Positions 15,368 to 52,363 are shown, numbered from the stretch's first letter. The stretch is DNA of 64,000 nucleotides from a virus (IMGVR_UViG_3300025876_000018:4646-68645), one strand, 5' to 3'. Notes: generated by a model from the sequence alone, not told the origin. Program-made: numbers and translations.

Positions 15368-15694
15368 ATGAAAATTAAAAAAAACGGAAAAGTAATTAGA
15401 TTAACAGAAAGTGATTTACGTAGAATTGCAAAAAGATATTTAAATGAAAATAAAGACCCTAAACAGATTGTTATTGATTGTATTATGGAAAATACTACAC
15501 TAAAAGATATTACAAATTTACCTGAATCATGTATAAAAATGATAACAGAAAAAGATTATACTAAAGCGTTAGAATGTGGAACGGAAATGGATGCAAGCGA
15601 CGCTAAGATGATTATTTCTAAAATTGAGCCTATCGGAAAATGTGTTATGAAGAAGATTGGTGGTAGTGGCCCTATGGATGAAAAATTACCATAA
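15368..15694 (+). CDS. Hypothetical protein with the LTESDL leader (putative head-packaged protein)
   Basis: MKIKKNGKVIRLTESDLRRIAKRYLNE; the leader is shared with 16922. Confidence 0.8.
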   Translation: MKIKKNGKVIRLTESDLRRIAKRYLNENKDPKQIVIDCIMENTTLKDITNLPESCIKMITEKDYTKALECGTEMDASDAKMIISKIEPIGKCVMKKIGGSGPMDEKLP

Positions 15695-15714
15695 TATTAT
15701 AAATCTAATAAATT

Positions 15715-15741
15715 AACCCCTCACATATGTGGGGTTTTTTT
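15715..15741 (+). terminator. Intrinsic terminator
   Basis: AACCCCTCAC-atat-GTGGGGTT hairpin followed by a T-run. Confidence 0.8.
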
Positions 15742-15765
15742 ATGATCGGACAATATTTATAATAT

Positions 15766-16023
15766 ATGAAATTAATTATTACAGAAAAACAATTTAAAAA
15801 ACTTATTTTAAAAGAAAATAAGGAATCAGATTTAAAATTATTAAGTGAATTTTGTAGTCGTTGGGGAGAACTTACCGATGTATCTAAAAACAATTTTTTA
15901 AAAGACAAAGAAAATTTAAAAAGTGATGGTTTACCATTAGATCCTTTTATGTTTTGTCAATTACCATTATCCGTTGAGTGGATAACAGATATAGAAAGAA
16001 ACTTACTAAAAAAATTATTATAA
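15766..16023 (+). CDS. Hypothetical protein with the ITEKQ leader
   Basis: MKLIITEKQFKKLILKE; ATATTTATA lies at 15753-15761. Confidence 0.75.
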   Translation: MKLIITEKQFKKLILKENKESDLKLLSEFCSRWGELTDVSKNNFLKDKENLKSDGLPLDPFMFCQLPLSVEWITDIERNLLKKLL

Positions 16024-16027
16024 TTAG

Positions 16028-16879
16028 ATGAATATTAAACTTACAGAGTCACAATATAAATTATTAAAGGAATTTAAGAAAAAAGCGTATTCTTTTGATT
16101 GGGATGATAATATATTGATTATGCCCACAAGAATACATTTAGATTATAATGTTAATAGTAATGATATTGCGGATTTAGGTAGTGAAGGTAATAAAATTTG
16201 GGTACCTGTATCAGTATCAACAGAACAATTTAGAAGTGTTAGACATAAATTAGGAAAAGACTTTAGATATCCAAACAATGATATACTAAGTGCGTTTAAA
16301 GATTTTAGAGATTATGGTGCATTTATTGAAGATACAAAAAGGGCATTAAGTTATAGAAGTTACGGACCTAGTTTTAATAAGTTTAAAGAAGCTTTAATAA
16401 GTGGTAGTGACTTTTCTATTATTACCGCAAGATCTAATCCCCCACAAGCAATAAAAGAAGGTATAAAGTTAATAATTAGAGATATGAGTTGGGGTGAACA
16501 AAAAGAGATGGAAAAGAACCTTAATGGGTTAACAATAGACGAATATTTAAATCTACAAGATTATCATCCTGTGTCTTCAGAAGAATTCGCACAAAAGTTT
16601 GGTTTAGATAGTGTGGGGACAAATCCAGAAGAAGGTAAAAAAATTGCGTTTAAGAGTTTTGTAGATAGAATTGTGAGTCAGATATCTAAGATTAAAGATG
16701 ACAAAGACTTTGAGGGTATTAGTGTTGGGTTTAGTGATGATGATGAAGGTAATGTAGAAGTTATAGAAGATTTAATTAGAAATGAATTAAAACGACTACA
16801 CCCCGAAATTACTTTTACAGTTTATGATACTTCAGATCCAAAAGACACAAAAAAGAAAAGAATAATAATTAAAAAGTAA
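16028..16879 (+). CDS. HAD-superfamily phosphatase-like protein with the LTESQ leader
   Basis: Motif I FDWDDN, motif II IITARS, Lys in KKIAF, motif IV GFSDDD. The leader is MNIKLTESQYKLLKE. Confidence 0.7.
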   Translation: MNIKLTESQYKLLKEFKKKAYSFDWDDNILIMPTRIHLDYNVNSNDIADLGSEGNKIWVPVSVSTEQFRSVRHKLGKDFRYPNNDILSAFKDFRDYGAFIEDTKRALSYRSYGPSFNKFKEALISGSDFSIITARSNPPQAIKEGIKLIIRDMSWGEQKEMEKNLNGLTIDEYLNLQDYHPVSSEEFAQKFGLDSVGTNPEEGKKIAFKSFVDRIVSQISKIKDDKDFEGISVGFSDDDEGNVEVIEDLIRNELKRLHPEITFTVYDTSDPKDTKKKRIIIKK

Positions 16880-16921
16880 TTTTTAATAAAAAACTAAATA
16901 TTTATATAAAAATATATAATT

Positions 16922-17230
16922 ATGAAAATTAAAAAGAATGGGGAAGTTATAAATCTAACGGAGTCGGATTTAAAACGAATTGTGAAAAATAGTCTACTTA
17001 AAGAAGAAACTGTAGAATGGGATTTAGACAAAGAAAGATTAGAAAAAGATGAAAAAGATATTTTATCTATAGATAAAAGACTATCACTATTAGAAAAAGA
17101 AGTACATGGTAATATGGATGGAGAGAAGTTTACGGATCAATCATTGCAAGAACAAGTTGATTGGTTAAGTAGTGGGATGGATGAAATAGGTAAAACAGTC
17201 ACTAGAATATTAAAACATATAAAATTATAA
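16922..17230 (+). CDS. Hypothetical coiled-coil protein with the LTESDL leader
   Basis: MKIKKNGEVINLTESDLKRIVKNSLLKEE; ATATTTATA lies at 16898-16906. Confidence 0.8.
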   Translation: MKIKKNGEVINLTESDLKRIVKNSLLKEETVEWDLDKERLEKDEKDILSIDKRLSLLEKEVHGNMDGEKFTDQSLQEQVDWLSSGMDEIGKTVTRILKHIKL

Positions 17231-17313
17231 TAAAAAAATAGTTTTTTTTGAAAACTGAATATTTATATAATATACAAAGAATAACTATAATAAAAAATTA
17301 AAAAAAAGAAAAA

Positions 17314-17802
17314 ATGGCAGATTTATTAATGAGAATGCCTGTTCCTTACGAACCGTTAAGAAAGAATAGGTTTATTTTGAGATTCCCAGACGAATTAGGA
17401 ATTCAAGAATGGTGGGTTTCTACAACATCAAGACCTAAATATACGAGTGATGAGGTAGAGATTCCATTTTTAAATACGTCTACTTTTGTTATTGGTAGAT
17501 TTAAGTGGGAATCTATTTCCGTAACATTTAGAGACCCTATTGGGCCTTCTGCAACACAAGCGTTAATGGAATGGGTTCGTTTACACTCAGAATCAGTAAC
17601 AGGTAGACAAGGTTACGCTGCAGGATATAAAAAAGACGTAGAATTAGAAATGTTAGACCCAACTGGTGTTGTTGTTCAGAAATGGATACTACAAGGTACA
17701 CAATTAAATGACGCAGATTTTAGTGGGTTAGATTATAATTCTTCTGATTTAGCAGAAATACAGTGTACACTTCGTTTTGATAGAGCGATTAACGTATTCT
17801 AA
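17314..17802 (+). CDS. Tail tube protein (T4 gp19-like)
   Basis: PYEPLRKNRF..RP...EIPFLN...G+..WE...VTFRDPI...LMEW...DPTG.VVQKWIL.G...LDY...I..TLRFD, downstream of the sheath. Confidence 0.95.
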   Translation: MADLLMRMPVPYEPLRKNRFILRFPDELGIQEWWVSTTSRPKYTSDEVEIPFLNTSTFVIGRFKWESISVTFRDPIGPSATQALMEWVRLHSESVTGRQGYAAGYKKDVELEMLDPTGVVVQKWILQGTQLNDADFSGLDYNSSDLAEIQCTLRFDRAINVF

Positions 17803-17829
17803 AAAATTAAAATATTTAATTTTATAAAT

Positions 17830-17862
17830 AAATCCTTATCATTAGTTTGGTGGGGATTTTTT
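17830..17862 (+). terminator. Intrinsic terminator after the tube gene
   Basis: AAATCCTTATCA-ttagtt-TGGTGGGGATTT stem with G.U pairs, followed by a T-run. Confidence 0.7.
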
Positions 17863-17918
17863 GGTTTTTGTTTATATTTATATAATAAACACAATAAAAA
17901 AATTAAAAAAAAGATATT

Positions 17919-19256
17919 ATGAAAAAAAGATTTAATACTTTGAATGAAGAAATAAAAAGAATGAAGTCTTTGTTTACGGAAGAAAGGTTATTCGGTAATC
18001 TAGTTGGTACTGAAGGAGAAAAATATATAACAGAAGGTTCATTAAAAAATGGGTCTAAAGGAGAAGGTGTAAAAGCACTACAAACCCTTCTAGGTGTAAA
18101 ACCAGTCGATGGTAAATTTGGTCCGAATACAAAAAAAGCATTAGAGAAATTTCAAAAAGAAAATAATTTAACACCTGACGGTATTGCAGGACCTAAGACT
18201 TTAGAGGCTTTTAATAAAAAAGCTGGATTAGTTAATGAAAGTGGACCCATCACTACACATGGTATGATGGACGCCATTAAAACAATAAACAAAGTAATTG
18301 CTAACAAAACCGTTGACGTTGAGTCATTGTCGAAAAGCATTGGTATAAAGCCAAATCCTACAGACGGAAACAAAAAGTCTACAGGTGACGGAGATGCTAC
18401 ACTAGATAACCCATTTGCTCAGAAAGGAGATCTAAAAAGTCAGTTAGAGAAAAAAAACAAGGAAGATAAAGATGACGGTAAAACTTCTTCCACTAAAGTT
18501 ACCAAAGGTGAAGACGGTACAGAAACTACAGTTACCAAAGGTGAAGACGGTAAAACTTCTTCCACTAAAGTTACCAAAGGATCTGATAGTGGGAAAGACT
18601 CAGAAACTGGGACATATGATGATCAGAAGGGTGAGGATGATGACGGACCTAAAAAAGCGGGAACAAATAGACAAGGTACAGAGTTTTACCAAAAAGGAAA
18701 AAGAAAAAATACCGTTAAAAGTGTTTTAGCGAGTGTTAAAAGAGATAAGGGTGAAATTAATGATAACGTTAAAGCCTGTAAAAAAGGGATGAAAGAAATT
18801 TATAAACAAACTACTAAAATAGGTAATGCGGAGATGAATTTAACTGATGAGGAATTAAAAGGTCTTGATTGGTGTGTTAGTACATTTAAAAATAGATTTG
18901 GTAAATTAGGTATTGGTATTGGGATGGAAGAAATGGAACAAACTTATGATTTATTAAATAGAGAAATTCCTGAATTGGAATCTTCCGTTGAGGGTGAAAC
19001 ATATGAAGTAAAAGATAGTGGTGGATTAACAGTTGCGAAGTTAAAGATGGTTGGGCCTGGTAAGTATAAGTTTAATGGTAGAAAGGGTTATACTATCGCA
19101 TCTAAAAATAGGAAAAGTGGTAGAATGCAAATTAATAATGATTTTAAGGAATATTTTTTAAAGACATTACAAAAAGATCCTAGTACTTATAAAGTTGTAA
19201 CATTACATAAAAAAACGGGTAAAAACAATGGTTTTTTCGCAATAAGAAAAAAGTAA
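17919..19256 (+). CDS. Leader-bearing protein with a peptidoglycan-binding (PG_binding_1-like) domain and a low-complexity linker
   Basis: Leader LNEEIKRMKSLFTEERLFGNLV, then LKNGSKGEGVKALQ..L....DGKFGPNT..AL..FQ....L.PDGIAGPKT. Confidence 0.8.
   Translation: MKKRFNTLNEEIKRMKSLFTEERLFGNLVGTEGEKYITEGSLKNGSKGEGVKALQTLLGVKPVDGKFGPNTKKALEKFQKENNLTPDGIAGPKTLEAFNKKAGLVNESGPITTHGMMDAIKTINKVIANKTVDVESLSKSIGIKPNPTDGNKKSTGDGDATLDNPFAQKGDLKSQLEKKNKEDKDDGKTSSTKVTKGEDGTETTVTKGEDGKTSSTKVTKGSDSGKDSETGTYDDQKGEDDDGPKKAGTNRQGTEFYQKGKRKNTVKSVLASVKRDKGEINDNVKACKKGMKEIYKQTTKIGNAEMNLTDEELKGLDWCVSTFKNRFGKLGIGIGMEEMEQTYDLLNREIPELESSVEGETYEVKDSGGLTVAKLKMVGPGKYKFNGRKGYTIASKNRKSGRMQINNDFKEYFLKTLQKDPSTYKVVTLHKKTGKNNGFFAIRKK
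18474..18580 (+). repeat. Exact 35-bp direct repeat (period 72 nt) encoding DGKTSSTKVTKG twice
   Basis: GACGGTAAAACTTCTTCCACTAAAGTTACCAAAGG at 18474-18508 and 18546-18580. The intervening unit shares GTTACCAAAGGTGAAGACGGTA. Confidence 0.95.
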
Positions 19257-19269: not shown

Positions 19270-22200
19270 GTGGGTAAAAAAATTGTTATATCGGAATCTC
19301 AGTATAAACGTGTTTTTTTAAATGAACAAAACACTAATAATAATGTAAATCCTAATGCAATAGACATACAAAAGTATTTAATAAAAAATGGTTATTTACC
19401 CGCATATAGATTAGAAAAAGGTAAATCTATTAGAAATGATGATGGTGATTTTGGAGATTTAAGTGCGGAAGCGTTTGCCAAATATTATTACGGTGATTTT
19501 AATAATATTAAAACTATAGAGGGGTTATATGATAAATTAAAATCTGATGGTTACGATTTAGGTTCTAAAACAGGTAAGATTTTTGGTGTTAAGATGGTAA
19601 AAGTTTTATCTGAAATTATAAATGAGAATAAAACCGATAAAGGTATTTTTAATAAAATATGGGATTCTTGGAAGGATGGAGTTAATTGGTTAGAACAAAA
19701 AAGATTAGATATAAGTAACGTATATTTAAATAAGCATATTAAAACAAATTCTGATGGTCAACAATTTAGAAAATGGGTTTATAAAAATGATGAAAGATTA
19801 AAAAAAGTTAACAATCTTTTTAAAAAATTAGGGTATTCTGAAAAATTTAGTAAAGTCGGTCCGATAGACAATAAATATTTTATGTCTGCATGGTACTTAC
19901 TATATAGTGAATATTTAAAAAATAGTGGGTTATTTCCTGAATATGAAAAGTATTTTTATATACCTGTGGATGGGTATAGTTGGAATATCGAAGAAGATAT
20001 TAATTCTGTAGAAGATGAAAATGGTGATTATATTCAAGTTACAGATGAATATTGGTATTTTGAACCGACAGATAAAAATAAATATAGAAATAGGGGTGGA
20101 TGGTCTACTAGTGAATGGGTTACAAGTTATTCGAAATCGATGGGGGAACAATTGACTGTTCAATCGATGGTACGGTTGGTGGAAAAAAGTTTTAAAAGTG
20201 CACCTGAAAAGGCAGGATATAAAAAAATGTACTGGGTAACTACAATTGGTGGATCAGTTTACGTTCCTCCTGTTAGTTCATATGAATACTTAAACGATCA
20301 AGGTGAATATGAGATAGTTAATGACACAATATCTCAACAGATGATGATGTATTCGTTTGTTGAAAGTCCTTATCCTTTAATTGAACATAATTATAAACGA
20401 TTTGATGATGATACTAATACACCTGTTTTTTGGTCATATGTACCCGATACATTTTATGAACAAGAGTATGAATACCATAAAGAAATTGGGGTGAAAGAAA
20501 AAGAAAGGGATGAAGACAGGGAAAAAGAAAGGGAAAAGGAAAAACAAAAAAACTCCTTATATAGTGATCAGAATACCTTATCAAAGGTTGATGTTGGTAA
20601 TTCTTTGTATTTACCTTTTAATGATATTAATGGTGGAGATGTTAAGAATCCCAGAACTGATAATTTGGCGACAATTAATTTAAATAGTTATATAAATGAC
20701 TATAATAAATGTCTTAACCATTGGAAAAGTGTTAAAGGTACATTTAAATGGAATGGTCAGGTAATTAATATGGATCAAAAACTTTTAGATACCTATAAAT
20801 TTAAAGATATTTACGATAGCAATAAAGATATTTATAATTTTGGGACTTTTGAAACTTTTTTAGAAAATAATGCCACTACTATTTTTAACCCTTCATATAT
20901 TATAAAACTTATTGGGGATATATATGAAAAAGTTTATATTTATGATCCAAATACTATAATGTCTAGAATTTGGACAATAAAATTTTTAGAAGAAAATGGT
21001 TGTCTAACAAATGTAAATTTAAGTGGTGATTATACAGAAAGTGATTTAAAAACTGCATTAAATTATACTTATATAGCGGTTGAGAATGGTGATTGCGCTA
21101 AAGATTCTTTGAATTTAATACAACAACACTATAATAAGAATCAATCTGATTCTGAAAAAACTTTAAACGGTTTGTTAAACCTATTAGAATTTGTTGATCA
21201 ATGGAACAAAAGGTTTTTAAGTCAAAAGAAAGAATATTATAAAGGCGCTTGTGAACAATGGATTAATTCTGGTGGGTCAACATCTTGGTCAAGATTTGTA
21301 ACTTCTTTTCAGGGACCTACAAAATTCATTGGGCAAAAATGGTCTGATTTTTGTCGTTACGAAGGAGGGGGAAATTGGTTATATTACCCACCTAGTTCGG
21401 ATGAATATGGTAACAAAGATTATATCTTAGGTTGTGGTTGTGTAAATATGAAACATAGTAACCCTCAAGGTTTACAAAAACACCCTAACACATTTTTTCT
21501 GTTAAACCCTTTAGCTGGGGGAGATATCCAATTAAGTACAACCAACGCAGAAGAAGGGTGGGGCAACGCAGGGGTAATAGATACAAGACCATTTTCTACA
21601 AAAGCTAAAGAATGGGCGAAGGAATGTAAATCAGATTGGCACTGTTGGGTAGATATTGCGTCGATAGCACTTTCACTAATTGGGTGTGTCTATACAGGTG
21701 CCGTTGGGTGTATAATTAGTGGTGGTAGGTTAATGATTGCGGCAGATACTATTAATGGGTTAGGATATACATATGAAGGTATAACTGACCCTAACAACCC
21801 TAAAAATAATGGTTGGAAATTGAATGCTGCTTTTAGTTTTATGCCAGTTATATTTAAAAGTGTTGGTAAATCTTATAAAATTTTAAAGGGAATACAAAAA
21901 TCAGGTGATTTAAAAACGTTTTCAAAAATAATAAAAAATGCAGAGGGAAAGTATAGTTCTTCTGTTTGGAAGTCTATGTCTGAGGAGGGAAAGAGTAAGG
22001 CAGTTGCGGAAGCATTTCAAGAGAGTTTTAAAGATTTAAGTGGTTCACAACTATCTAAAATGCAAGAAATGTATACTCAAACTTTAAATATACTTAAGAA
22101 CTCTGATTACCAAAAGTTAGTGGCGGCATTGGATGATGTTCCTTATAGTAAAGTTGGAGATTTAAATCAGTTAATGGTATTGGCATCTAAAGACGTTAAA

Positions 22201-22914
22201 GTTTCAAATAACGTACTTAAATTAATAAATGAAGGTAAAACATTTAATGATATTATTAAGATATATAAAATTAAACCTATAATAGATTTATCTAAAGGGG
22301 CAATAACAGATTTCTTATTCCAAAGCACACTATTCGCATTAACACAATTTTATCCTGAACCAGTCGCTAAACTAATTCTTAGTGGTATCCAATCATTTGA
22401 AGATGCAACAGGTGTACCATTAAAAAAATGGTTGGGTGTAAGTACCGATAAAAACCCTGAAGATGACATGTCTAAATCTATACAAAGAGGGATGGGATAT
22501 TTTGAAAATTGGTCAACAGTAACCACTGAAATATCTAACTATTTAAAAAATAGAATATCTCCGTTATTATTGAAATATAAAATTGATATTAGTAGTGGGA
22601 ATATTGAAGATTTTATTGTTAATGGTGTTAATTCTTTATTCGGTGAACCTTTAAATAATTTTAAGGCTAGGTTAGAACTTATAGTAAAAAGAACAGAGGA
22701 AAAAGAAGATGAAAAATTAGGTTTTGATGAGGTTAAATCCTTTTTACAAAAAATGTATGATTCAGAGATTGATTATTTAGAGAGTTATACTAAAGAAGAT
22801 AATGTTATAAAACAAATTAAAAGTGAGAGTGAGAAGAACCCACCTGATGAAGCAACTAAAGATTGGATAAAAACAAATAATATTGATATGGATCAATTTG
22901 ATATAGTATACTAA
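19270..22914 (+). CDS. Large (1214 aa) leader-bearing protein with a degenerate PG-binding region and a hydrophobic Gly/Ala hairpin (putative ejection protein)
   Basis: GTG start; leader IVISESQYKRVFLNE; IQKYLI.NGYL...DGDFG; WVDIASIALSLIGCVYTGAVGCIISGGRLMIAADTINGLGY at ~21645-21780. Confidence 0.7.
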   Translation: MGKKIVISESQYKRVFLNEQNTNNNVNPNAIDIQKYLIKNGYLPAYRLEKGKSIRNDDGDFGDLSAEAFAKYYYGDFNNIKTIEGLYDKLKSDGYDLGSKTGKIFGVKMVKVLSEIINENKTDKGIFNKIWDSWKDGVNWLEQKRLDISNVYLNKHIKTNSDGQQFRKWVYKNDERLKKVNNLFKKLGYSEKFSKVGPIDNKYFMSAWYLLYSEYLKNSGLFPEYEKYFYIPVDGYSWNIEEDINSVEDENGDYIQVTDEYWYFEPTDKNKYRNRGGWSTSEWVTSYSKSMGEQLTVQSMVRLVEKSFKSAPEKAGYKKMYWVTTIGGSVYVPPVSSYEYLNDQGEYEIVNDTISQQMMMYSFVESPYPLIEHNYKRFDDDTNTPVFWSYVPDTFYEQEYEYHKEIGVKEKERDEDREKEREKEKQKNSLYSDQNTLSKVDVGNSLYLPFNDINGGDVKNPRTDNLATINLNSYINDYNKCLNHWKSVKGTFKWNGQVINMDQKLLDTYKFKDIYDSNKDIYNFGTFETFLENNATTIFNPSYIIKLIGDIYEKVYIYDPNTIMSRIWTIKFLEENGCLTNVNLSGDYTESDLKTALNYTYIAVENGDCAKDSLNLIQQHYNKNQSDSEKTLNGLLNLLEFVDQWNKRFLSQKKEYYKGACEQWINSGGSTSWSRFVTSFQGPTKFIGQKWSDFCRYEGGGNWLYYPPSSDEYGNKDYILGCGCVNMKHSNPQGLQKHPNTFFLLNPLAGGDIQLSTTNAEEGWGNAGVIDTRPFSTKAKEWAKECKSDWHCWVDIASIALSLIGCVYTGAVGCIISGGRLMIAADTINGLGYTYEGITDPNNPKNNGWKLNAAFSFMPVIFKSVGKSYKILKGIQKSGDLKTFSKIIKNAEGKYSSSVWKSMSEEGKSKAVAEAFQESFKDLSGSQLSKMQEMYTQTLNILKNSDYQKLVAALDDVPYSKVGDLNQLMVLASKDVKVSNNVLKLINEGKTFNDIIKIYKIKPIIDLSKGAITDFLFQSTLFALTQFYPEPVAKLILSGIQSFEDATGVPLKKWLGVSTDKNPEDDMSKSIQRGMGYFENWSTVTTEISNYLKNRISPLLLKYKIDISSGNIEDFIVNGVNSLFGEPLNNFKARLELIVKRTEEKEDEKLGFDEVKSFLQKMYDSEIDYLESYTKEDNVIKQIKSESEKNPPDEATKDWIKTNNIDMDQFDIVY

Positions 22915-23000: not shown

Positions 23001-23858
23001 ATGAAAAATTTAAATGAGGAAATAAAAAGAATAAAATCCCTTTTTACTGAAGATAGATTATTTGGTAATTTGGTTAATGAGGCAACAAATCCCGATACCA
23101 GTGGTGATGGTAAAATAGATTCTTCAGAATTTACTGCGTCTGGTAATGAAATAGATACAGATGAGGCTATGGAATTTTTAATTGCGTCAGGATACACTGT
23201 TACTAATCCAAATGATGTAGACGAAAAAGTAACTACTTTAGATATTTGTAGTCAAAAAACAAATATGAAATGGGTGTATAAATACTCTAAAAATAAAAAC
23301 CTACTTAATAATAGTGGGGTTCGTAATAATTTTAACGCTACTAATGGTGTTTGTTATTACTACTGGACTGACATTAATAGTCCGACACTAGGGGATTTAA
23401 AAGTTAAAAAAGTAGTTGCTTGGGATGATGATCAGATAACTTTTTACATACAATTACCATACGAAATAAACTTAGAGTCTATGAATGATGCATTAAAGTC
23501 TTTTAATGACTTAACTATGAAAATGAGAACGTTTGTAGAAACGTCAGAGTTATTTCCTGGTAGTATATCAAAACCACCTTTTTATATTAAGTTTAGTGGA
23601 AAGTTAGATTATAATAATATGAAGGTTAGAGATGTGGAATTTTTAAATTTTAGAGATAAAGATATGAAAAAAACTTCATTCAGTAGTACTCTTTTTGATC
23701 AGATTGAGGATAAGGGTTATAACCCTCTAGTTAATCAAAGTGGTCCATCTACTGGTGCTAGAAAATTTAGTTCTTCGATTGGTTTATTAGATATAATTAG
23801 TGAAGTGACTGGGTTGACGGATAGGTTCGTAATAGATAAATTGGTTGATAAATTATAA
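23001..23858 (+). CDS. Hypothetical leader-bearing protein (leader nearly identical to that of 17919)
   Basis: MKNLNEEIKRIKSLFTEDRLFGNLVNE. DTSGDGKIDSSE follows and resembles an EF-hand/dockerin-type DxxxDGxI loop. Confidence 0.8.
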   Translation: MKNLNEEIKRIKSLFTEDRLFGNLVNEATNPDTSGDGKIDSSEFTASGNEIDTDEAMEFLIASGYTVTNPNDVDEKVTTLDICSQKTNMKWVYKYSKNKNLLNNSGVRNNFNATNGVCYYYWTDINSPTLGDLKVKKVVAWDDDQITFYIQLPYEINLESMNDALKSFNDLTMKMRTFVETSELFPGSISKPPFYIKFSGKLDYNNMKVRDVEFLNFRDKDMKKTSFSSTLFDQIEDKGYNPLVNQSGPSTGARKFSSSIGLLDIISEVTGLTDRFVIDKLVDKL

Positions 23859-23864: not shown

Positions 23865-26375
23865 ATGAAAAATAGGAAGACATTAAGTATTGATAGTAAG
23901 AATTTTAACCTACTGATTGAACGTATGAATAAAAAATATACATACGAAGAAAGTATAAATAAAATTAGAGATTTAATAGTAGAAGGTCCGGGTAAAAGGA
24001 TTAAAGAACTAATTATGGGTGGTGCTATTCATGTGGATATTCCAATATCTTTAAGAAGGATAAGTAATATTTTTGATGTTAATCGTTCAGTTGATATTGC
24101 TGATATAGATGGTGTCTTAAAAAGGGGTGTTGATGGTATTATAGAGGATTTCAGTAGTATGGGGAAGAATTTGACTCCTCTGGATCAAAAAAGTATTAGT
24201 AATTTATTTTCATATTTAGAAGGTATAAAAAGTGCTAGTGATAATGCAGGTGACGCATTAATAAGCATAAATAAAAATTTAAAAAATGGCACCAATTTAG
24301 ATTTAAACCAAAGAATAGATTTTATTGATGAGGTATATAAAGATAAACCATCGTTATTAGACGAGGTTTATCCAAATAAAACAGATTTAAACAAAGTAAA
24401 AAACAAAAATGGGGAGTTAAATAGTAGGGATGCAATTGAAAGTAGAATTAAAAATAACTTTTTAAGTTTAGATGTTGATGATATTAAATTTTTATATAAA
24501 AATGGTACTTATCGGGTAAGGTTTAACCCTAAAAAATTGTTTAGTAAACTTAATCTTAAAACAGGTGATTTAGTAGTTTGGAATAAAAATTGGGGTAAGG
24601 GAAATTATTATATAATACCTTTTGAAGATACTAACCCTTCAATGATAAAGGATTTGGAGAAAAATGGTTATAAAACGTATACAGAAGCTAATTATACTGG
24701 TATTGAGGGAACTATACCTAAAGGTGGGGAAGTAACCGCCATAACACAAAGCAAAGGCGCTAATTTCTTTTTAAGACTGTTGGTGGGTGCAAATAAAAAA
24801 GGTGGTGTTGGTGGTTTTTGGTTTAGAACTAAGTCAGGAAAACGGTTGTTTCCAGCATATACTTGGGTAGCTTCATCTAAATTAATGTTGTTGATTATAG
24901 AATGTGGGGTGCAGGATATTTTTGACAAACAAAAAATAAATCGTTTAGTATCTGGTGTGGAGAAAGAATACTCTTATACTTTTGCTGATTGTATGTTTGG
25001 TAGTGAATATCAAACTAAAGATGGATTAGTGTCATATGAGCCAGTGTTTTATGCGTGGCATGGATACAATATATTAATACCAGTAACTTTTCAAATTGTA
25101 TTTGGGGTAGCGGGGAAAGTTTTTAAGGAAGTACTTTTAAATCGATTAGAAAATAGAAAGGAGGAGTATATAAATAGGTTTAATAATAAAGTGGATGAAA
25201 TGATGGGGGGATTATCTATTAGGGGGGTGTTAAATTTTGATACTAAACTACAAGTAGAGGGTAGTGTTAATGAATTATTAGAGGATGAAGATGTTACAAT
25301 GTATTTTAAGGTCATTAAATGGGCCACTGGGATTGATTATAATGAGAATGATGTTAAAGAGTTTATTTTAAATACTATTGATGGAATCTCAGAGGCGGAG
25401 CTGGATTCTGAAAAGAAGAGAGATGAGGTTCGTAAGGATATTAATGAAAGGATTGGTAAAGAGATACAAATAAATAATGAAATATCTGTGGAAGGTGATA
25501 CCAATTATGATATTCAAATAGAAAATTTAAAGGAATTGTTCTATGAAAGTGCAAAAATGAAAAAAGGTAAAATTATTAACGAAAAACTAATTGCACATAA
25601 GAAAGAGTATGATGGTGAATCTGAGGAAATGAAAAAATTATGTATAGATTTGGAAGTAATGTTAGATTTATATTCTCTTGAAGGTTGGGAACCTGGTGAG
25701 AGTTTAGAAGGTTTAAGTGACGCCAATTGTATAGACAGTAAAGAAAAGTTGGAGGAGATAATTCTTGTGTTTTCAGAAAAAGAAGCAACAGGATATGAGG
25801 GGTTAAATGAATTTAATAAAGAAATAAATTGTAACTTATTAACCATTAAAGATTCATATAAAAATGGATGTATAAATAATCAAGGTACACAAGTGGTTGA
25901 TGTAAAAAAAGAAAAAATAAATGGGGTAATAACCACAATTACAATACCTGTGAAAGATTATACTTTTCAAGAGGTAAAAGAAGTTTCTGGGGAATATAAA
26001 ATTGTTGCGGGATTTGATGATACAGATTTATTGTTGAAGATGTTATCTATGTCAGGTTCTATTATTAAAGATACTAATAAAGGTATTAAATTTTTAAATG
26101 ATAATGGATTAGAGTATAAGGTAGGGACAAAAGGAATGCCCACTGAAGGAAAATTTTGTGTTAAATTAACGGAGAAAAATCTTAGAACATTAGAAACATA
26201 TGGAAAAGGAGGTTTTTGTGGAGGATCAGCAGATAAAGCAAAATGCATTAACACCTTAATTGAAACAATTAAAAATGATGAATATTTATCACAATCTATG
26301 GACACTTGGAACGGATGTGTTTATGACGATCTATGGACACTTGGAACGGATGTGAATATGGGTGGGAATGAATAA
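23865..26375 (+). CDS. Large hypothetical leader-like protein (836 aa) with hydrophobic segments
   Basis: The N-terminus has LLIE..YEESINKIRDLIVEG. Hydrophobic stretches such as YNILIPVTFQIVFGVAG are present. Confidence 0.75.
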   Translation: MKNRKTLSIDSKNFNLLIERMNKKYTYEESINKIRDLIVEGPGKRIKELIMGGAIHVDIPISLRRISNIFDVNRSVDIADIDGVLKRGVDGIIEDFSSMGKNLTPLDQKSISNLFSYLEGIKSASDNAGDALISINKNLKNGTNLDLNQRIDFIDEVYKDKPSLLDEVYPNKTDLNKVKNKNGELNSRDAIESRIKNNFLSLDVDDIKFLYKNGTYRVRFNPKKLFSKLNLKTGDLVVWNKNWGKGNYYIIPFEDTNPSMIKDLEKNGYKTYTEANYTGIEGTIPKGGEVTAITQSKGANFFLRLLVGANKKGGVGGFWFRTKSGKRLFPAYTWVASSKLMLLIIECGVQDIFDKQKINRLVSGVEKEYSYTFADCMFGSEYQTKDGLVSYEPVFYAWHGYNILIPVTFQIVFGVAGKVFKEVLLNRLENRKEEYINRFNNKVDEMMGGLSIRGVLNFDTKLQVEGSVNELLEDEDVTMYFKVIKWATGIDYNENDVKEFILNTIDGISEAELDSEKKRDEVRKDINERIGKEIQINNEISVEGDTNYDIQIENLKELFYESAKMKKGKIINEKLIAHKKEYDGESEEMKKLCIDLEVMLDLYSLEGWEPGESLEGLSDANCIDSKEKLEEIILVFSEKEATGYEGLNEFNKEINCNLLTIKDSYKNGCINNQGTQVVDVKKEKINGVITTITIPVKDYTFQEVKEVSGEYKIVAGFDDTDLLLKMLSMSGSIIKDTNKGIKFLNDNGLEYKVGTKGMPTEGKFCVKLTEKNLRTLETYGKGGFCGGSADKAKCINTLIETIKNDEYLSQSMDTWNGCVYDDLWTLGTDVNMGGNE
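26294..26354 (+). repeat. Exact 26-bp direct repeat with a 9-nt spacer at the 3' end of the 836-aa gene
   Basis: ATCTATGGACACTTGGAACGGATGTG at 26294-26319 and 26329-26354. The period is 35 nt, so the copies are read in different frames. Confidence 0.95.
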
Positions 26376-41515: not shown

Positions 41516-42262
41516 ATGAATAAGAAAAAATTACTTTCCGAAGATTTAAAAAGATACCAACAATTGTTGGAGTATACCTTTTATGTTCCAGAAGAAGAAG
41601 ATAGAGTGGACGACTTACTTTTAGATGATATGTTAACAGAGCAAGATCCCGCAGCGGATGAAGAAGATCCTTTTTTTGATGTTGGTGACGAAGATGAAGC
41701 ACCTGAAGGTGAAATTGAATCGACTGAAGACGAATTTTCGGAGGAAGAAGAAACTACTGAAGAAACACCAGAAGAAGGTGGAGAGACAGATCCTTTTGGT
41801 TCTGATACAGAAGTAGAAGATGAATTTGCAGATGAAGATATGGAAATGGGTGGTGATGATGAAACTGTAGAGGTAGACGTTACTGATATCGTAGATAAAA
41901 CTGAAGAAACTAAAGCGTCTGTAGATGATATGGGTAGTAAAATGGATGACTTACTATCTAAATTAAGTGACTTAGAATCACAAGTTACAGATATGGATGG
42001 AGTTATTAACAAAATTGATGACTTAGAAAAAGAAATTGAAAAAAGAAATCCTACACCTGTAGAAAGATTAGAAATGAGATCTATGGATTCATTTCCATAT
42101 AGTGTTAAACTAACTGATTATTGGAAAGATAAAGAAGGGTATGATGCGAGTGAACCTGAAGATGAATACACATTAACTCAGAGTGATGTTGACAATTTTG
42201 AAGATAAAGAAATAAGAGCTTCTTTTGAGTCTGATAACGAAGAAGAAAAAGAAGAATTATAA
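41516..42262 (+). CDS. Highly acidic coiled-coil leader-bearing protein (possible head core/scaffold-type protein)
   Basis: MNKKKLLSEDLKRYQQLLEY, a long D/E-rich region and heptad-like MDDLLSKLSDLESQV..IDDLEKEIEK. Confidence 0.7.
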   Translation: MNKKKLLSEDLKRYQQLLEYTFYVPEEEDRVDDLLLDDMLTEQDPAADEEDPFFDVGDEDEAPEGEIESTEDEFSEEEETTEETPEEGGETDPFGSDTEVEDEFADEDMEMGGDDETVEVDVTDIVDKTEETKASVDDMGSKMDDLLSKLSDLESQVTDMDGVINKIDDLEKEIEKRNPTPVERLEMRSMDSFPYSVKLTDYWKDKEGYDASEPEDEYTLTQSDVDNFEDKEIRASFESDNEEEKEEL

Positions 42263-42276: not shown

Positions 42277-42753
42277 ATGAAAACAAGATTAGATGAAACA
42301 AATAAAATGAGAAAGTTAATGGGTTTAAACTTATTAACTGAAGAAGAAACCCCCACAGGAAGGACTCAAACATCATTATCTAAAGAAGTATCCGAAAAAG
42401 AGATTGAACAATTGGAGAAATTAATAAATGATATGGAGACTACTATTAAAGAGTTAAAATCTGAAAAAAAATATAATTATGGTAATATATTAACCAGACT
42501 TAAAAATAAACGAAAAATCGCTGGTATGACAAAAAAATCAGAAAAACTACAAGATAAGATTGATTCTTTAGTGAAAGATATGGAACAATACGATGAGGGT
42601 AAAGTAGTTAGTGGTTCAGATAAGAAAAAACTTAAAAGTGGTATTGGTATGGCATTATCTTATATCGCCGCAATTGTTGCACAAATAAATTTAGTAAAAC
42701 ATAGGGAAAGGATATCTAAAAGAGTACAAGGACTCATCGACTCAATAAATTAA
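42277..42753 (+). CDS. Leader-bearing coiled-coil hypothetical protein
   Basis: MKTRLDETNKMRKLMGLNLLTEEE; hydrophobic patch near the C-terminus (GIGMALSYIAAIVAQI). Confidence 0.75.
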   Translation: MKTRLDETNKMRKLMGLNLLTEEETPTGRTQTSLSKEVSEKEIEQLEKLINDMETTIKELKSEKKYNYGNILTRLKNKRKIAGMTKKSEKLQDKIDSLVKDMEQYDEGKVVSGSDKKKLKSGIGMALSYIAAIVAQINLVKHRERISKRVQGLIDSIN

Positions 42754-45880: not shown

Positions 45881-45883
45881 GTT

Positions 45884-47762: not shown

Positions 47763-47843
47763 TTTAGGGTAACAAATCTTTGATTTATATGATAAGTCAT
47801 TATGGAATACTTACCCCCTAAAAAAAGAAAAAAATTTAAAAAT

Positions 47844-49930: not shown

Positions 49931-49944
49931 GGTGACTTTTTTTG
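49918..49944. terminator. Bidirectional terminator between convergent genes
   Basis: AAAGTCATC-GTAA-GGTGACTTT stem with a GNRA loop, a T-run on + and an A-run upstream. Confidence 0.8.
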
Positions 49945-49946
49945 TT

Positions 49947-50516
49947 TTAAAATTTAAAATCTTTTGAATAAAGGTATTTAATCATTGATTCATCTTTTTC
50001 TGTGTAGTTTTCAGAGTGATAAATAATAGAATTACTTTCATTATGATGGTGTTTAAATCCTAACATATGAAACATTTCGTGTCTGATTACATACATTCGG
50101 TTATCTATATTCCAATCAACACCATTATCAATTTGTATTTCACAACCTATTAAAGTATGTTCATTGTATCTATCTATTTTATTGTAAGTATTACCAACAT
50201 TACCACTCTCATCAGAAAAAGAATAAATTTCTTTCATTTCTTCATCAGTAAGAAAATATATTATAGTATTTGAAGAATCTCTGTTGTCAACAATATTAAT
50301 AGATATGGTTTCTAACAAATTATTAATTTTTATTGATGTTTTTAAAACCTCTAATGAATCTTTTTTTGTATAATCACCGAATAAAAATATTTTGATATCA
50401 GATTCCCATCTACCGTCTTTTACCACATTATTTATTAAATGACTATGTGTAAAGTGATTTTGTGATAAAATATGGTTTGAAGTAAATATTAATAGTGTAA
50501 TGATTAAATTTTTCAT
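49947..50516 (-). CDS. Secreted metzincin-type zinc metallopeptidase (matrixin/DUF2927-like)
   Basis: HEMFHMLGFKH matches HExxHxxGxxH. The signal-peptide-like start MKNLIITLLIFTSNHILS-Q begins at the ATG at 50516; the track's TTG start at 50540 falls inside the promoter. Confidence 0.85.
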   Translation of the reverse strand: MKNLIITLLIFTSNHILSQNHFTHSHLINNVVKDGRWESDIKIFLFGDYTKKDSLEVLKTSIKINNLLETISINIVDNRDSSNTIIYFLTDEEMKEIYSFSDESGNVGNTYNKIDRYNEHTLIGCEIQIDNGVDWNIDNRMYVIRHEMFHMLGFKHHHNESNSIIYHSENYTEKDESMIKYLYSKDFKF

Positions 50517-50537
50517 AGTTGTTTTATATTTATATAA

Positions 50538-50569
50538 CAAATATACAGTTTTTATATTAAACTGCCAAA
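50538..50569 (-). promoter_or_regulatory. Bacteroidota primary-sigma promoter TTTG-N20-TATATTTG driving the peptidase
   Basis: On the minus strand, -33 TTTG is at 50569-50566 and -7 TATATTTG at 50545-50538, with a 20-nt spacer. Confidence 0.7.
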
Positions 50570-50575
50570 TTATTT

Positions 50576-52363
50576 ATGAAAAATTTAACAGAACAATTAA
50601 ATAGAATTAAAAATTTAATGGTATATGAGAAGGGTACACCTATTAATGAGATTTCTACATCTAATAATAAAACTATAAGAAAACCTTCAGAAGAAAGTGG
50701 TGAAACTAAATCTTCAGAAGAAAGTGGTGAAACTAAATCTTCAGAAGAAAGTGGTGAAACTAATCCCACAAAAGGTGGAGAAGATTGTTTTGAAGTCAAA
50801 GCTTCAGGTGAATTTGTAGTTAATGTAAATAAAGGTAGTAAGGCGGTAACTAATTTTATTGTAAATTTAGAGAATTCAATTAAGAATAACCCATCATTTG
50901 ATAAGTCTAAAGTTAAGGAGGGTTCAATGTATATCACTGATATAACACTACAAGGATTTGCTAGTAATTTTTATGGTAATGCAGTAGAACCTGATTTTGA
51001 TAATGATTGGTGTACAAAATGGGATAAAAGAGGTGGTTTATATGATGGGTTATGTTCTGAATGGAATATAAAACCATTTTCTGGAACAAAAAAAAGTAGT
51101 TATTCAGGAGATAAATCTACTAACAATAAATTAGCTGCCGATAGGGCAGTAAATGCGTATAATGCATTAAAAGACAAATTAACAGAAAAAGCAAAAGGGC
51201 AGGGTATAAAAATTTCACCAGATTTAAAACCTAAATATATAAAAGGGGGTACAATATATACTGAAGATAAAGTTGATGAAAATTGGAAAACTAGAATAAG
51301 TAACGGTAAAATAAATCCTGGACAAGTTGTCCTATGCACTGCAAAGGTGTGTTATTCACTAAAAGAAGAGGAAGAAGAAGAAGAAGAAGGTTGTCCTGAT
51401 AAATGTATGGAAAAAGACGCAAATGGGAAATGTGTATGTATAGAATCAAAAGGATTAAAAGAGGTAGATGGAAAATGTGTTTGTATAAGAACTGAAAAGG
51501 CACCTAATGAAAATTGTGAGTGTAAAGAAAAAGAAGAAGAAACCTGTCCTGACAGTTGTATGGAAAAAACAGAAGAAGGTAAATGTAAATGTCCTTCTGA
51601 TATGAAATATGATGAGGAAACAAAAAAATGTGTTTGTAAAGATGAAAATAAAGTAAAAGTGCCTGGTGGTTGTAAATGCGAAAATAAAAAACCACCATTA
51701 AAATGTGATTATAATAGAGGACCCATTCCAGGTAAAAGGGGTACAAAAGAAAACAACTACGTTGGTAAGTCATTAGAAACTTCATTTCCTGTTGGTGCAA
51801 ACGACTCAATAACAATAGATTTTGATTCAGTTGTAGTACCAGATGCATTTTATATTAAATATGGGGATCAAGAGTATTGGAGCGGTTTTATGGGTTCTAT
51901 ATATGATATGGGGTATAAACAAGTTGCTTTATCTATTGAAGATAGAAAATTAATGTTACCTATACAAAGTAAACAAACAAAGGCAGACATAAAAGATTCC
52001 TTATCAAAAGGAGATGATGACTATAGTGATATGACTAATACAATTAGAAATTTTGTGGGGGAGTTAGTTATGTACAAAAGAAATAAAGATTTAATTGGTG
52101 CTATTAATAGTGCGATTAGTGATGTAGAAGGTAAAATGAAAGTTAATTCATTATTTGAAAATGGTGACAACAACGCAGAGTCAGTTACAGATAATATTAT
52201 AAAAAGTGGTTCTATAAGAGATAACATTAAAAAATACGAAGGTATTATGAAAAGAAATGTTTCATTTACTATAGAAAAAGAAAATGAATCTTTACCATTA
52301 ACAGTTTTAGTGTTCTCACCTTTAGATAAAACAATTTTCACTATGAAAGTTAAATGTCAATAA
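50576..52363 (+). CDS. Leader-bearing protein with an OmpA-C-like segment, a poly-Glu linker and Cys-rich repeats
   Basis: MKNLTEQLNRIKNLMVYE..INE; ITLQGFAS...NNKLAADRAVNAYNAL; CPDKCMEK..GKCVC / CPDSCMEK..GKCKCP repeats. Confidence 0.75.
   Translation: MKNLTEQLNRIKNLMVYEKGTPINEISTSNNKTIRKPSEESGETKSSEESGETKSSEESGETNPTKGGEDCFEVKASGEFVVNVNKGSKAVTNFIVNLENSIKNNPSFDKSKVKEGSMYITDITLQGFASNFYGNAVEPDFDNDWCTKWDKRGGLYDGLCSEWNIKPFSGTKKSSYSGDKSTNNKLAADRAVNAYNALKDKLTEKAKGQGIKISPDLKPKYIKGGTIYTEDKVDENWKTRISNGKINPGQVVLCTAKVCYSLKEEEEEEEEGCPDKCMEKDANGKCVCIESKGLKEVDGKCVCIRTEKAPNENCECKEKEEETCPDSCMEKTEEGKCKCPSDMKYDEETKKCVCKDENKVKVPGGCKCENKKPPLKCDYNRGPIPGKRGTKENNYVGKSLETSFPVGANDSITIDFDSVVVPDAFYIKYGDQEYWSGFMGSIYDMGYKQVALSIEDRKLMLPIQSKQTKADIKDSLSKGDDDYSDMTNTIRNFVGELVMYKRNKDLIGAINSAISDVEGKMKVNSLFENGDNNAESVTDNIIKSGSIRDNIKKYEGIMKRNVSFTIEKENESLPLTVLVFSPLDKTIFTMKVKCQ
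50685..50763 (+). repeat. 27-bp tandem repeat, about 3 copies (SEESGETKS)
   Basis: CTTCAGAAGAAAGTGGTGAAACTAAAT at 50685 and 50712, and a 25-nt copy at 50739. Confidence 0.95.

What the first reader, a model, noticed from the sequence alone, without database searches (positions are those of the whole stretch)
15368..52363. A family of 12 unrelated proteins sharing an N-terminal [LI]xE leader: candidate capsid-loading / injection signal system
Seen: ORFs with no similarity downstream begin with related leaders of two classes. Class A is [LI][TS]E[SK][QD][LYF]: 15368 LTESDLRRI..YLNE, 15766 ITEKQFKKLILKE, 16028 LTESQYKLLKE, 16922 LTESDLKRI..LLKEE, 19270 ISESQYKRVFLNE. Class B is L[NSTD]E.[IL].[RK]..L: 17919 LNEEIKRMKSL, 23001 LNEEIKRIKSL, 41516 LSEDLKRYQQLLE, 42277 LDETNKMRKLM..LLTE, 50576 LTEQLNRIKNL..INE, with looser forms at 23865 and 27361. 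Most have a second [LI]xE just before the unique domain. The sheath, tube, baseplate and replication proteins lack it. Known: T4 internal proteins carry a ~10-aa N-terminal capsid-targeting sequence, and prohead protease gp21 cuts after (I/L)-X-E. Inference: this is a modular packaging tag that loads a large, swappable set of cargo (phosphatase, PG-binding, OmpA-like, membrane-hairpin proteins) into the head for delivery at infection, and could be used for protein delivery.
Basis: partly seen in the sequence, partly recalled or inferred. Interest (0 to 1): 0.88.

Follow-up and report, generated by a model that had tools for sequence, protein, structure and literature searches.

The report
Shared head-loading tags on phage proteins
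An uncultured marine jumbo phage puts a few related 11-29-residue N-terminal tags, each ending at the cut motif of a T4-type head protease, on many unrelated proteins, most likely to load them into the capsid for injection as T4 does with its internal proteins; no experiment shows this yet.

Summary
The leaders are real. Profiles built only from relatives find 8 of the 12 named genes at the extreme N-terminus. Two more (41516, 42277) are plausible variants. Two (23865, 27361) are not supported. Residue shuffles of the contig's proteins give 0.005 such hits against 9 observed.

The window is a fragment (about 22%) of a roughly 300-kb marine T4-related jumbo phage. They sit on at least 69 unrelated body families. 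One leader subtype alone heads 1,221 protein clusters in public metagenomes.

Similarity stops right after a hydrophobic-x-Glu site. Homologous bodies carry different leader classes joined at that site. Relatives encode a T4 gp21-family protease, and T4's capsid-protein cut site (E65|A66) is invariant in their capsid proteins. Several leader genes share a promoter-like motif with the sheath, tube and baseplate genes.

Best reading, about 60% likely: a T4-type capsid-targeting propeptide system, greatly expanded. Cleavage, packaging and injection are inferred, not shown. The window's supposed phosphatase and OmpA cargo were not confirmed. This scan has reported similar leader families in other phage lineages.

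The parts
15368..15694 (+). Class A leader gene (108 aa). The leader is residues 1-27 (nt 15368-15448): a beta-hairpin part MKIKKNGKVI, then LTE, a basic helix, and the end site LNE.
   Evidence: Leave-out profile 17.3 bits at residues 8-20. A second, weak internal copy (ITEKDY) lies at residue 59.
15766..16023 (+). Class A leader gene (85 aa). The leader is residues 1-17 (nt 15766-15816), with sites ITE and LKE.
   Evidence: Leave-out profile 21.0 bits at residues 1-17. ATATTTATA lies 13 nt upstream.
16028..16879 (+). Class A leader gene (283 aa). The leader is residues 1-15 (nt 16028-16072), ending LKE. The body is a conserved enzyme-like protein with a DWDDN motif.
   Evidence: Profile 20.1 bits. 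In the AF2 model residues 1-18 have pLDDT below 50 and are detached from the folded body. There are 12 orthologues, all with the leader. A HAD fold is only weakly hinted.
16922..17230 (+). Class A leader gene (102 aa). The leader is residues 1-28 (nt 16922-17005), ending LKE.
   Evidence: Profile 20.2 bits. AF2 gives a beta-hairpin at 2-11 and a helix at 14-28, then a linker at 28-33 with pLDDT below 50, then the helical body. About 95 metagenomic proteins share only this leader. ATATTTATA lies 24 nt upstream.
17919..19256 (+). Class B leader gene (445 aa). The leader is about residues 1-29 (nt 17919-18005). The body holds a peptidoglycan-binding domain.
   Evidence: Profile 38.4 bits at residues 6-24. 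PG_binding_1 E=3e-13 at residues 51-97. ATATTTATA lies 45 nt upstream.
19270..22914 (+). Class A leader gene (1214 aa). The leader is residues 1-19 (nt 19270-19326), with ISE and the end site LNE. The large body has one 24-residue apolar stretch near residue 796.
   Evidence: Profile 23.1 bits. Apolar stretch. In locus L009 this gene type is fused to the next one, with an internal class B leader.
23001..23858 (+). Class B leader gene (285 aa). The leader is residues 1-27 (nt 23001-23081), ending VNE.
   Evidence: Profile 38.5 bits at residues 1-20. The leader is nearly identical to that of 17919, but the body is unrelated.
50576..52363 (+). Class B-like leader gene (595 aa). The leader is residues 1-25 (nt 50576-50650), with LTE, VYE and INE.
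   Evidence: Profile 22.6 bits. ATATTTATA lies 50 nt upstream. No Pfam family matches the body.
41516..42262 (+). Weak candidate (248 aa, acidic coiled coil). The N-terminus has LSE and LLE.
   Evidence: Below the profile threshold. No second example in the relatives. No upstream ATATTTATA; SSB and UvsX genes follow within 1.5 kb.
42277..42753 (+). Plausible variant leader (158 aa), of the form L-x-E-T-N-x-M-R-x-L-M...LL-x-E-E.
   Evidence: The same N-terminal pattern sits on a 278-aa protein of G002. Below the threshold of the class B profile.
23865..26375 (+). Not supported as a family member (836 aa).
   Evidence: No profile hit. It only has [LI]xE sites in its N-terminus, as do 38% of control proteins.
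27361..28476 (+). Not supported as a family member (371 aa).
   Evidence: No profile hit. ATATTTATA lies 21 nt upstream.
12403..12411 (+). One copy of the promoter-like motif ATATTTATA, here before the sheath gene. The same motif precedes the tube, the baseplate genes and the leader genes.
   Evidence: 22 copies against 7.9 expected. 11 of the 15 + strand copies lie 13-55 nt upstream of gene starts. None precedes the replication genes at 42856-49706.

Best explanation
The leaders are capsid-targeting propeptides of the T4 type.

Proposed sequence of events:
1. During late infection each leader-bearing protein is made together with the virion proteins.
2. Its basic N-terminal unit docks on the scaffolding core of the assembling prohead. 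In the long form this unit is a beta-hairpin plus an amphipathic helix. In class C it is the helix alone.
3. The shell closes around the core.
4. The gp21-family prohead protease cuts after the hydrophobic-x-Glu sites inside and at the end of the leader.
5. The mature cargo stays in the head and leaves with the DNA at infection.

Because the tag is short and self-contained, any gene that acquires it becomes cargo. That would explain the very large and fast-changing set of bodies.

Shown here:
- The tag is N-terminal, modular and under peptide-level selection.
- It ends at a hydrophobic-x-Glu site.
- The clade has the protease.
- T4's capsid-protein cut site is conserved in the clade.

Inferred only: docking on the core, cleavage, packaging and injection.
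For: Position and significance:
- N-terminal hits against internal hits at 8 bits or more: class A 79/7, class B 33/5, class C 40/2.
- 9 hits in the contig against 0.005 in shuffles.

Junction at the cut motif:
- In 95 proteins that share only the long leader, information content is about 4.3 bits per position through residue 22. L and E are kept at +13 and +15, and information then falls to about 0.5 bits.
- 94 of the 95 have [LIVM]xE at the break.

Modularity:
- 137 leader proteins fall into 69 body families. Recognised domains, each in a different relative's protein, are Fe/Mn SOD, an AAA_33/zeta-like kinase, a C39-like peptidase, GNAT, OmpA and PG-binding.
- Homologous bodies carry different classes joined at the Glu. 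In L008...ILTE|QRRP (class A) matches ...MLHE|QRRP (class B). Elsewhere ...IIKED|..DEF.W (A) matches MKNIIRKILKEE|QDEFEW (C).
- Worldwide, 1,221 clusters carry one leader subtype, and 146 of the best 150 match at residues 1-30.

Protease and its specificity:
- Peptidase_S77 is present in G002 and G005 at 90 bits.
- E65-A66 of T4 gp23 is invariant in an alignment with G002, G005, phage immuto and Mel-JY01.
- T4's own propeptides have the same form: MKTYQEFIAE|A...ITE|A, MAKINELLRE|S. The L/I-X-E specificity and CTS function are described in PMC9026906 and PMC5694885.
- The putative scaffold and core proteins have about twice the background LxE density.

Expression and gene context:
- The ATATTTATA motif is shared with the sheath, tube and baseplate genes.
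- In G002, three profile-positive class A leader genes (30381, 31663, 33453) lie within 4 kb upstream of the terminase-portal-protease-capsid block.

Structure and fusions:
- AF2 places a low-confidence linker right after the terminal LKE, and the leader is detached from the body.
- Fused ORFs keep internal leaders, as a polyprotein would.
Against: - There is no proteomic, cleavage or packaging evidence for any member.
- The own contig lacks the head module, so the protease is known only from relatives (tube protein 91% and 72% identical).
- The residue after the terminal Glu is mostly Q, E or D. The T4 sites seen here have A or S there.
- The long leader (27 aa, predicted to be structured) is much longer and far more conserved than T4's 10-residue CTS. 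It could therefore bind something other than a scaffold.
- Some bodies (SOD, a kinase) are unusual as capsid cargo.
- 15-18% of ORFs carry leaders in G000 and G002, which is a lot of cargo.
- The window's leader genes sit in the tail module.
- The putative scaffold has no detectable similarity to T4 gp22.
Confidence: 0.6

Rival explanations
1. The leader is an uncleaved docking module. It attaches diverse proteins to another virion part (tail lumen, baseplate, neck) or to another phage assembly, not to the head interior.
For: - In the window the leader genes lie between sheath and tube, and between tube and baseplate hub.
- One carries a peptidoglycan-binding domain typical of tail-associated lysins.
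- The long leader is predicted as a small structured unit with pLDDT about 80.
Against: - This does not explain why the module boundary coincides with the T4 protease motif in 94 of 95 cases.
- It does not explain the class swaps at the Glu or the internal leaders in fusions.
- In G002 other leader genes flank the head genes.
- By general knowledge of myovirus tails, the tape measure fills the tube lumen. That leaves little room for hundreds of cargo types.
Confidence: 0.15
2. The leader is a recognition tag for some other enzyme or cellular machine, unrelated to virion loading. Candidates are a modifying enzyme, regulated proteolysis, or localisation to a membrane or compartment through a cationic amphipathic helix.
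For: - An earlier finding of this scan (e1-127136) showed that a shared phage leader can be tied to a radical-SAM enzyme rather than to the capsid.
- The helix is basic and amphipathic.
- Some bodies are ordinary cytoplasmic enzymes, such as SOD and a kinase.
Against: - No radical-SAM gene occurs in G000, G001, G002, G003 or the 93%-complete G005.
- Near-invariant polar residues (N-G, T-E-S-D) argue for a specific protein partner, not generic membrane binding.
- The upstream motif is shared with virion genes.
- The boundary lies at the protease motif.
Confidence: 0.12
3. There is no functional tag. The resemblance comes from AT-rich, Lys-rich N-termini, or from one paralogous family whose C-terminal parts diverged beyond recognition.
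For: - MK-rich starts are common in AT-rich genomes.
- [LI]xE alone occurs in the first 35 residues of 38% of control proteins.
Against: - Shuffles give 0.005 hits against 9 observed.
- Leaders are 88-95% identical on bodies with unrelated Pfam folds.
- The same bodies carry different leader classes.
- 42% of codon pairs at identical residues differ synonymously.
Confidence: 0.02

Closest known systems
Phage T4 capsid targeting sequence (CTS) of internal proteins IPI, IPII and IPIII (and the propeptides of Alt and gp24), removed by prohead protease gp21 (Mullaney & Black 1996; reviews PMC9026906, PMC3012670, PMC5694885)
   Same: - A short N-terminal peptide shared by otherwise unrelated proteins.
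- It begins MK and ends at L/I-x-E.
- The phage has a gp21-family protease and a gp23-family capsid protein with the same cut site.
- The cargo genes are variable. The T4 literature already suggests the CTS is a way for T4-like phages to recruit new cargo.
   Different: - The leader sequence is unrelated to MKTYQEFIAE.
- It comes in three related classes of 11-29 residues, often with two or three cut motifs and a predicted beta-hairpin plus helix.
- It sits on dozens of genes per genome and on at least 1,221 clusters worldwide, against T4's three IPs plus Alt.
- The residue after the terminal Glu is usually Q, E or D.
- Function is untested.
Propeptides of head, inner-body and ejection proteins of giant phages phiKZ, 201phi2-1 and SPN3US, cut by gp21-related proteases at S/A-x-E (PMC5694885, PMC9026906)
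   Same: - These are jumbo phages that load many proteins into the head.
- The propeptides have several cut sites.
- The paralogues gp53 and gp54 share an identical 15-residue N-terminus.
   Different: - Those propeptides are mostly over 100 residues and are not one portable tag.
- The cut motif is S/A-x-E, not L/I-x-E.
- This clade has T4-like structural genes, not the phiKZ type.
N-terminal packaging signals of extracellular contractile injection system (PVC) payloads, which load cargo into the tube lumen (from my own knowledge, not tested here)
   Same: An N-terminal, transferable signal on diverse effectors of a contractile machine. The window's genes lie next to the sheath and tube genes.
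   Different: - PVC signals are about 50 disordered residues without a protease motif.
- Here the tag ends at a head-protease motif.
- The element is a DNA-packaging phage with terminase, portal and capsid genes.
Shared N-terminal tag of phage RB43-type proteins linked to a radical-SAM/SPASM enzyme
   Same: One conserved N-terminal peptide on many unrelated small phage proteins.
   Different: No radical-SAM gene occurs in five genomes of this clade. The sequence is different, and here the tag ends at the protease motif.

Membership tests
T4-type capsid-targeting propeptide system (CTS plus gp21 processing) | A short conserved peptide at the extreme N-terminus of otherwise unrelated proteins | tested here: met
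   - Profile hits are N-terminal: 79/7, 33/5 and 40/2 for classes A, B and C.
- There are 69 body families.
- 146 of the 150 best global hits match at residues 1-30.
T4-type capsid-targeting propeptide system (CTS plus gp21 processing) | The peptide ends at the protease motif (L/I)-x-E | tested here: met
   - 94 of 95 have [LIVM]xE at the point where similarity ends.
- Class swaps join at the Glu.
- Caveat: the next residue is mostly Q, E or D rather than A or S.
T4-type capsid-targeting propeptide system (CTS plus gp21 processing) | The phage encodes a gp21-family (Peptidase_S77) prohead protease | tested here: met
   PF03420 matches at 90 bits in relatives G002 and G005. The own contig is a 22% fragment without a head module, so this is shown for the clade only.
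T4-type capsid-targeting propeptide system (CTS plus gp21 processing) | The protease keeps L/I-x-E specificity, seen in a known substrate (the major capsid protein propeptide) | tested here: met
   E65-A66 of T4 gp23 is invariant: LTE|A, INE|A, VSE|A and ISE|A in the relatives. This shows conservation of the site, not cleavage.
T4-type capsid-targeting propeptide system (CTS plus gp21 processing) | A gp22-like scaffolding core that the tag binds | tested here: inconclusive
   An acidic, LxE-rich 500-aa protein lies between the protease and capsid genes. It has no PHROG hit and no BLAST similarity to T4 gp22.
T4-type capsid-targeting propeptide system (CTS plus gp21 processing) | The tagged proteins are present in mature heads with the tag removed, and are ejected into the host | not testable with these tools
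   This needs virion proteomics with a semi-specific search, or reporter fusions.
T4-type capsid-targeting propeptide system (CTS plus gp21 processing) | Sequence similarity of the tag to the T4 CTS (MKTYQEFIAE) | tested here: not met
   The window's leaders share only the MK start and the terminal hydrophobic-x-E. One protein of the cultured relative immuto does resemble the T4 CTS.
Radical-SAM-linked shared leader (RiPP-like recognition tag) | A radical-SAM/SPASM enzyme encoded in the same genome | tested here: not met
   PF04055 is absent from G000, G001, G002, G003 and G005. The control genomes were all positive.

The most novel reading that the evidence does not exclude
These abundant marine jumbo phages carry a sequence-predictable 'injectome'. 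A small set of interchangeable tags would load hundreds to thousands of different, fast-turning-over proteins into the head and deliver them with the DNA. The cargo includes enzymes such as SOD, kinases, papain-like proteases and acetyltransferases, plus many small orphan proteins. This would be by far the largest repertoire of virion-delivered effectors known, readable directly from metagenomes, and the tag would be portable for loading foreign proteins.
Probability: 0.45. Interest if true: 0.8.

Novelty: new variant of a known kind. Interest (0 to 1): 0.62.

Why it matters
If the tags work as in T4, one can list from sequence alone which proteins an uncultured, widespread marine phage group injects into its host. 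That is normally impossible without purified virions.

The cargo list would be a rich source of candidate anti-defence and host-takeover proteins. One subtype alone gives 1,221 clusters, most of them small orphan proteins. The list would also show that capsid loading by a portable propeptide is a general and expandable strategy of T4-related phages, not a T-even curiosity.

The tag is longer and more conserved than T4's, and has an apparently flexible junction. That would make it a candidate handle for packaging foreign proteins.

I found no paper that describes these leaders. This scan has already flagged analogous leader families in several other phage lineages, so the general theme is recurring rather than unique to this window.

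Tried and rejected
- Pfam and PHROGs on the leader genes gave no family except PG_binding_1 and endolysin-type hits in 17919. No family covers the leader itself.
- tblastn of a 30-residue leader against 50,697 phage records gave no match. The query is too short for that database.
- A full-text search for the motif strings found no relevant paper.
- Foldseek of the 16028 model against PDB gave nothing at E<=0.001. There were only weak rows for ISN1/IMP-nucleotidase (HAD superfamily), so the 'phosphatase' label stays unconfirmed.
- PHROGs on ten head-region proteins of G002, including the putative scaffold, gave no hits. BLAST of the putative scaffold against T4 gp22 gave nothing.
- The radical-SAM rival was tested and the gene is absent.
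- Microcystis phage Mel-JY01, a cultured relative, shows no such leaders in its first 50 kb, which include the head and tail modules. Flavobacterium phage immuto has only variant forms. No cultured phage with the exact leaders was found.
- A look-up of earlier findings by sequence gave nothing.
- A DNA-level explanation (recombination site or RNA element) was rejected because of the high synonymous divergence.

Full report
**What the window is.** The window is positions 4646-68645 of a 71,485-bp linear virus contig. CheckV's estimate is about 22% complete. All genes I call in the window lie on the + strand, and GC is about 30%.

The contig encodes:
- a 950-aa tail sheath and a tube protein;
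- baseplate hub and wedge proteins, an SSB and a UvsX-like recombinase.

The tube protein has more than 597 relatives in IMG/VR on contigs of up to 297,623 bp. The window therefore belongs to a large uncultured group of jumbo phages. The closest cultured phages are Microcystis phage Mel-JY01, Flavobacterium phage immuto and Rhodothermus phage RM378, at 34-38% tube identity. Leader-bearing proteins occur in Tara Oceans surface samples.

**Checking the observation.** I built profile HMMs for each class from relatives only, leaving out the contig's own sequences. These hit 15368, 15766, 16028, 16922 and 19270 (class A, 17-23 bits) and 17919, 23001 and 50576 (class B, 23-38 bits). All hits are at the very N-terminus.

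With the full profiles the contig has 9 N-terminal hits and no internal ones among 49 ORFs. 200 residue shuffles give 0.005 per replicate.

The other four named genes fare less well:
- 41516 and 42277 fall below threshold. 42277 has a matching N-terminus on a protein of different length in relative G002.
- 23865 and 27361 are not supported as members.

The bare [LI]xE tripeptide means little by itself, since 38% of control proteins have one in their first 35 residues. The extended leader is far beyond chance, and a second site is present in 64% of leader proteins against 9% of controls.

At identical residues of the long leader, 42% of codon pairs differ synonymously. The conserved object is therefore the peptide, not a DNA or RNA element.

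**Extension to relatives.** I scanned 80 related loci plus two long relatives, G002 (127 kb) and G005 (298 kb, 93% complete). At 8 bits or more the profiles give N-terminal against internal hits of 79/7 (A), 33/5 (B) and 40/2 (C).

One copy lies on the same contig just outside the window.

The classes are related:
- Class C aligns with the second half of class A.
- The second half of class B aligns with the start of class A.

So the leaders are built from one to three short units, each ending in hydrophobic-x-Glu. Some proteins carry tandem leaders.

Leader genes make up 9 of 49 ORFs in the contig, 18 of 119 in G002 and 11 of 301 in G005.

**Modularity.** The 137 distinct leader proteins fall into 69 body families by BLAST. 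Pfam finds unrelated folds among the bodies: PG_binding_1, Fe/Mn superoxide dismutase, an AAA_33/zeta-like kinase, C39-like peptidases, GNAT, OmpA, L5 gp82 and DUF4314.

A word-based search with the 102-aa protein of 16922 returned about 95 metagenomic proteins. They share only the 26-27-residue leader at up to 95% identity, and their bodies differ.

Anchored on LTES, information content behaves as follows:
- about 4.3 bits per position through residue 22;
- L and E are kept at +13 and +15;
- from +17 onward it is about 0.5 bits.

94 of the 95 have [LIVM]xE at that break. These proteins were retrieved by shared words with the query, which inflates leader conservation. That bias does not explain the sharp boundary.

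A profile of this one leader subtype, searched against 1.84 billion cluster representatives, found 1,221 clusters at E<=0.001 and 242 at E<=1e-10. 146 of the best 150 match at residues 1-30.

Homologous bodies also carry different leader classes, and the splice point is the Glu:
- Within one genome (L008), ...GGGILTE|QRRPLQSL (class A) pairs with ...NTSMLHE|QRRPFQSL (class B).
- ...KIIKED|..DEFSW (A) pairs with MKNIIRKILKEE|QDEFEW (C).
- ...ENLNE|GLK (B) pairs with ...ENLDE|GIK (A).

**Link to the head protease.** The contig itself has no head module. Relatives G002 (tube 91% identical) and G005 (72%) encode a Peptidase_S77 (T4 gp21) protease at 90 bits, above the curated cut-off.

The gene order is T4-like: terminase, portal, a small core-like protein, protease, an acidic LxE-rich protein, then a gp23-family capsid protein.

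I aligned the capsid-protein N-termini with T4 gp23, taken from NC_000866. E65-A66 of T4 is the residue pair after the 65-residue propeptide (PMC5694885). It is invariant in the alignment: FLTE|AE in T4, LLTE|AT, LINE|AT, IVSE|AN and LISE|AN in the relatives.

T4's own propeptides, read from the record, have the same general form as the leaders here:
- MKTYQEFIAE|A (IPII and IPIII);
- ...STITE|A (IPI);
- MAKINELLRE|S (gp24);
- MEGLIE|A (gp67).

The literature states three relevant points:
- gp21 cuts after L/I-X-E.
- The first 10 residues of IPIII suffice for head targeting.
- Propeptides often hold several sites.

The putative scaffold and core proteins of the clade have about twice the background LxE density.

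**Expression and gene context.** ATATTTATA is enriched in the window, with 22 copies against 7.9 expected. 11 of the 15 + strand copies lie 13-55 nt upstream of gene starts:
- structural genes: sheath, tube, and the genes at 30718, 52422, 59487 and 62555;
- leader genes: 15766, 16922, 17919 and 50576;
- also 27361.

None precedes the replication genes. This fits co-expression with virion proteins, provided the motif is a late promoter. I did not test that.

In G002, three profile-positive class A leader genes (30381, 31663, 33453) lie within 4 kb upstream of the terminase. The set of leader genes between sheath and tube differs between the window and G002; only the 16028-type gene is shared.

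**Structure.** AF2 of the 102-aa protein predicts the following:
- a beta-hairpin at residues 2-11 and a helix at 14-28, at pLDDT about 80;
- a linker at residues 28-33 with pLDDT below 50, right after the terminal LKE;
- a helical body after that.

In the 283-aa protein, residues 1-18 are of low confidence and lie apart from the folded body.

Fusion ORFs keep internal leaders. L009 fuses the window's 19270-type and 23001-type genes, with a class B leader at about residue 1013. P0126 and P0153 have the order leader-body-leader-body. This is what a protease-processed polyprotein would look like. Assembly or gene-calling artefacts are not excluded.

**Rivals.**
- Chance, or a diverged paralogous family, is excluded.
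- A radical-SAM-linked tag, the outcome of a similar case in this scan, does not apply. No radical-SAM gene occurs in five genomes of the clade.
- An uncleaved docking module for the tail or another structure remains possible. So does a tag for some other machinery. The window's genes sit in the tail module, the long leader looks structured, and some bodies (SOD, a kinase) are odd as capsid cargo.
- Neither of those explains why the module boundary, the class swaps and the internal leaders all coincide with the head-protease motif.

**Verdict.** The capsid-targeting reading is the best supported, at about 0.6, but it rests wholly on indirect evidence.

It works like the T4 CTS. It meets the family's tested sequence-level criteria except similarity to the T4 tag itself. 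The scaffold partner, the cleavage and the packaging are untested.

It is a new variant of a known kind: different tag sequences, three interchangeable classes, and a cargo repertoire orders of magnitude larger than T4's. Similar leader families were reported earlier by this scan in other T4-like and jumbo phage lineages, so the theme recurs. I found no publication describing it.

Noticed in passing
contig positions 1510-1890 (outside the window, upstream of window base 1): A 126-aa ORF starts with a third leader class (MMKNVIKKILKEE...). In relatives this class heads many tandem small genes, for example four in G002 between 7011 and 10018.
   Followed up: partly
L009:13242-17207: A 1322-aa ORF fuses the window's 19270-type and 23001-type genes and keeps a complete class B leader internally, near residue 1013. 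P0126 and P0153 are similar leader-body-leader-body ORFs. These may be polyproteins or assembly artefacts.
   Followed up: partly
G005 15538-18398 (L083:15541-18398, minus strand): Four consecutive leader genes. They include an Fe/Mn superoxide dismutase whose class C leader ends ...LLTE just before the SOD N-terminus, and an AAA_33/zeta-toxin-like kinase with a class A leader.
   Followed up: partly
window 12403, 15753, 16898, 17259, 17874, 27340, 30690, 50526, 52408, 59474, 62540: ATATTTATA lies 13-55 nt upstream of virion and leader genes, and upstream of none of the replication genes (22 copies against 7.9 expected). It is a candidate late promoter.
   Followed up: partly
L105:16611-17693, L105:10664-11964: In Flavobacterium phage immuto, a protein between portal and protease begins MRTLQEKYNAIQE...HFIAEA, close to the T4 CTS. 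Two adjacent genes upstream of the terminase share another leader, of the form ..NF.L..FL.ENKLT.N...LKE.
   Followed up: no
window 15368-15694: This small protein has a second, weak internal copy of the class A core (ITEKDY) at residue 59.
   Followed up: no
L020:7376-9217, L021:10481-12844, L047:12102-13673, P0203: Tandemly duplicated leaders, with two class A units in a row, precede the body. P0203 then continues into a peptidoglycan-binding-like region.
   Followed up: no
window 869-8503: A 2544-aa ORF upstream of the sheath contains two internal LTEIL.R matches at residues 156 and 1122.
   Followed up: no
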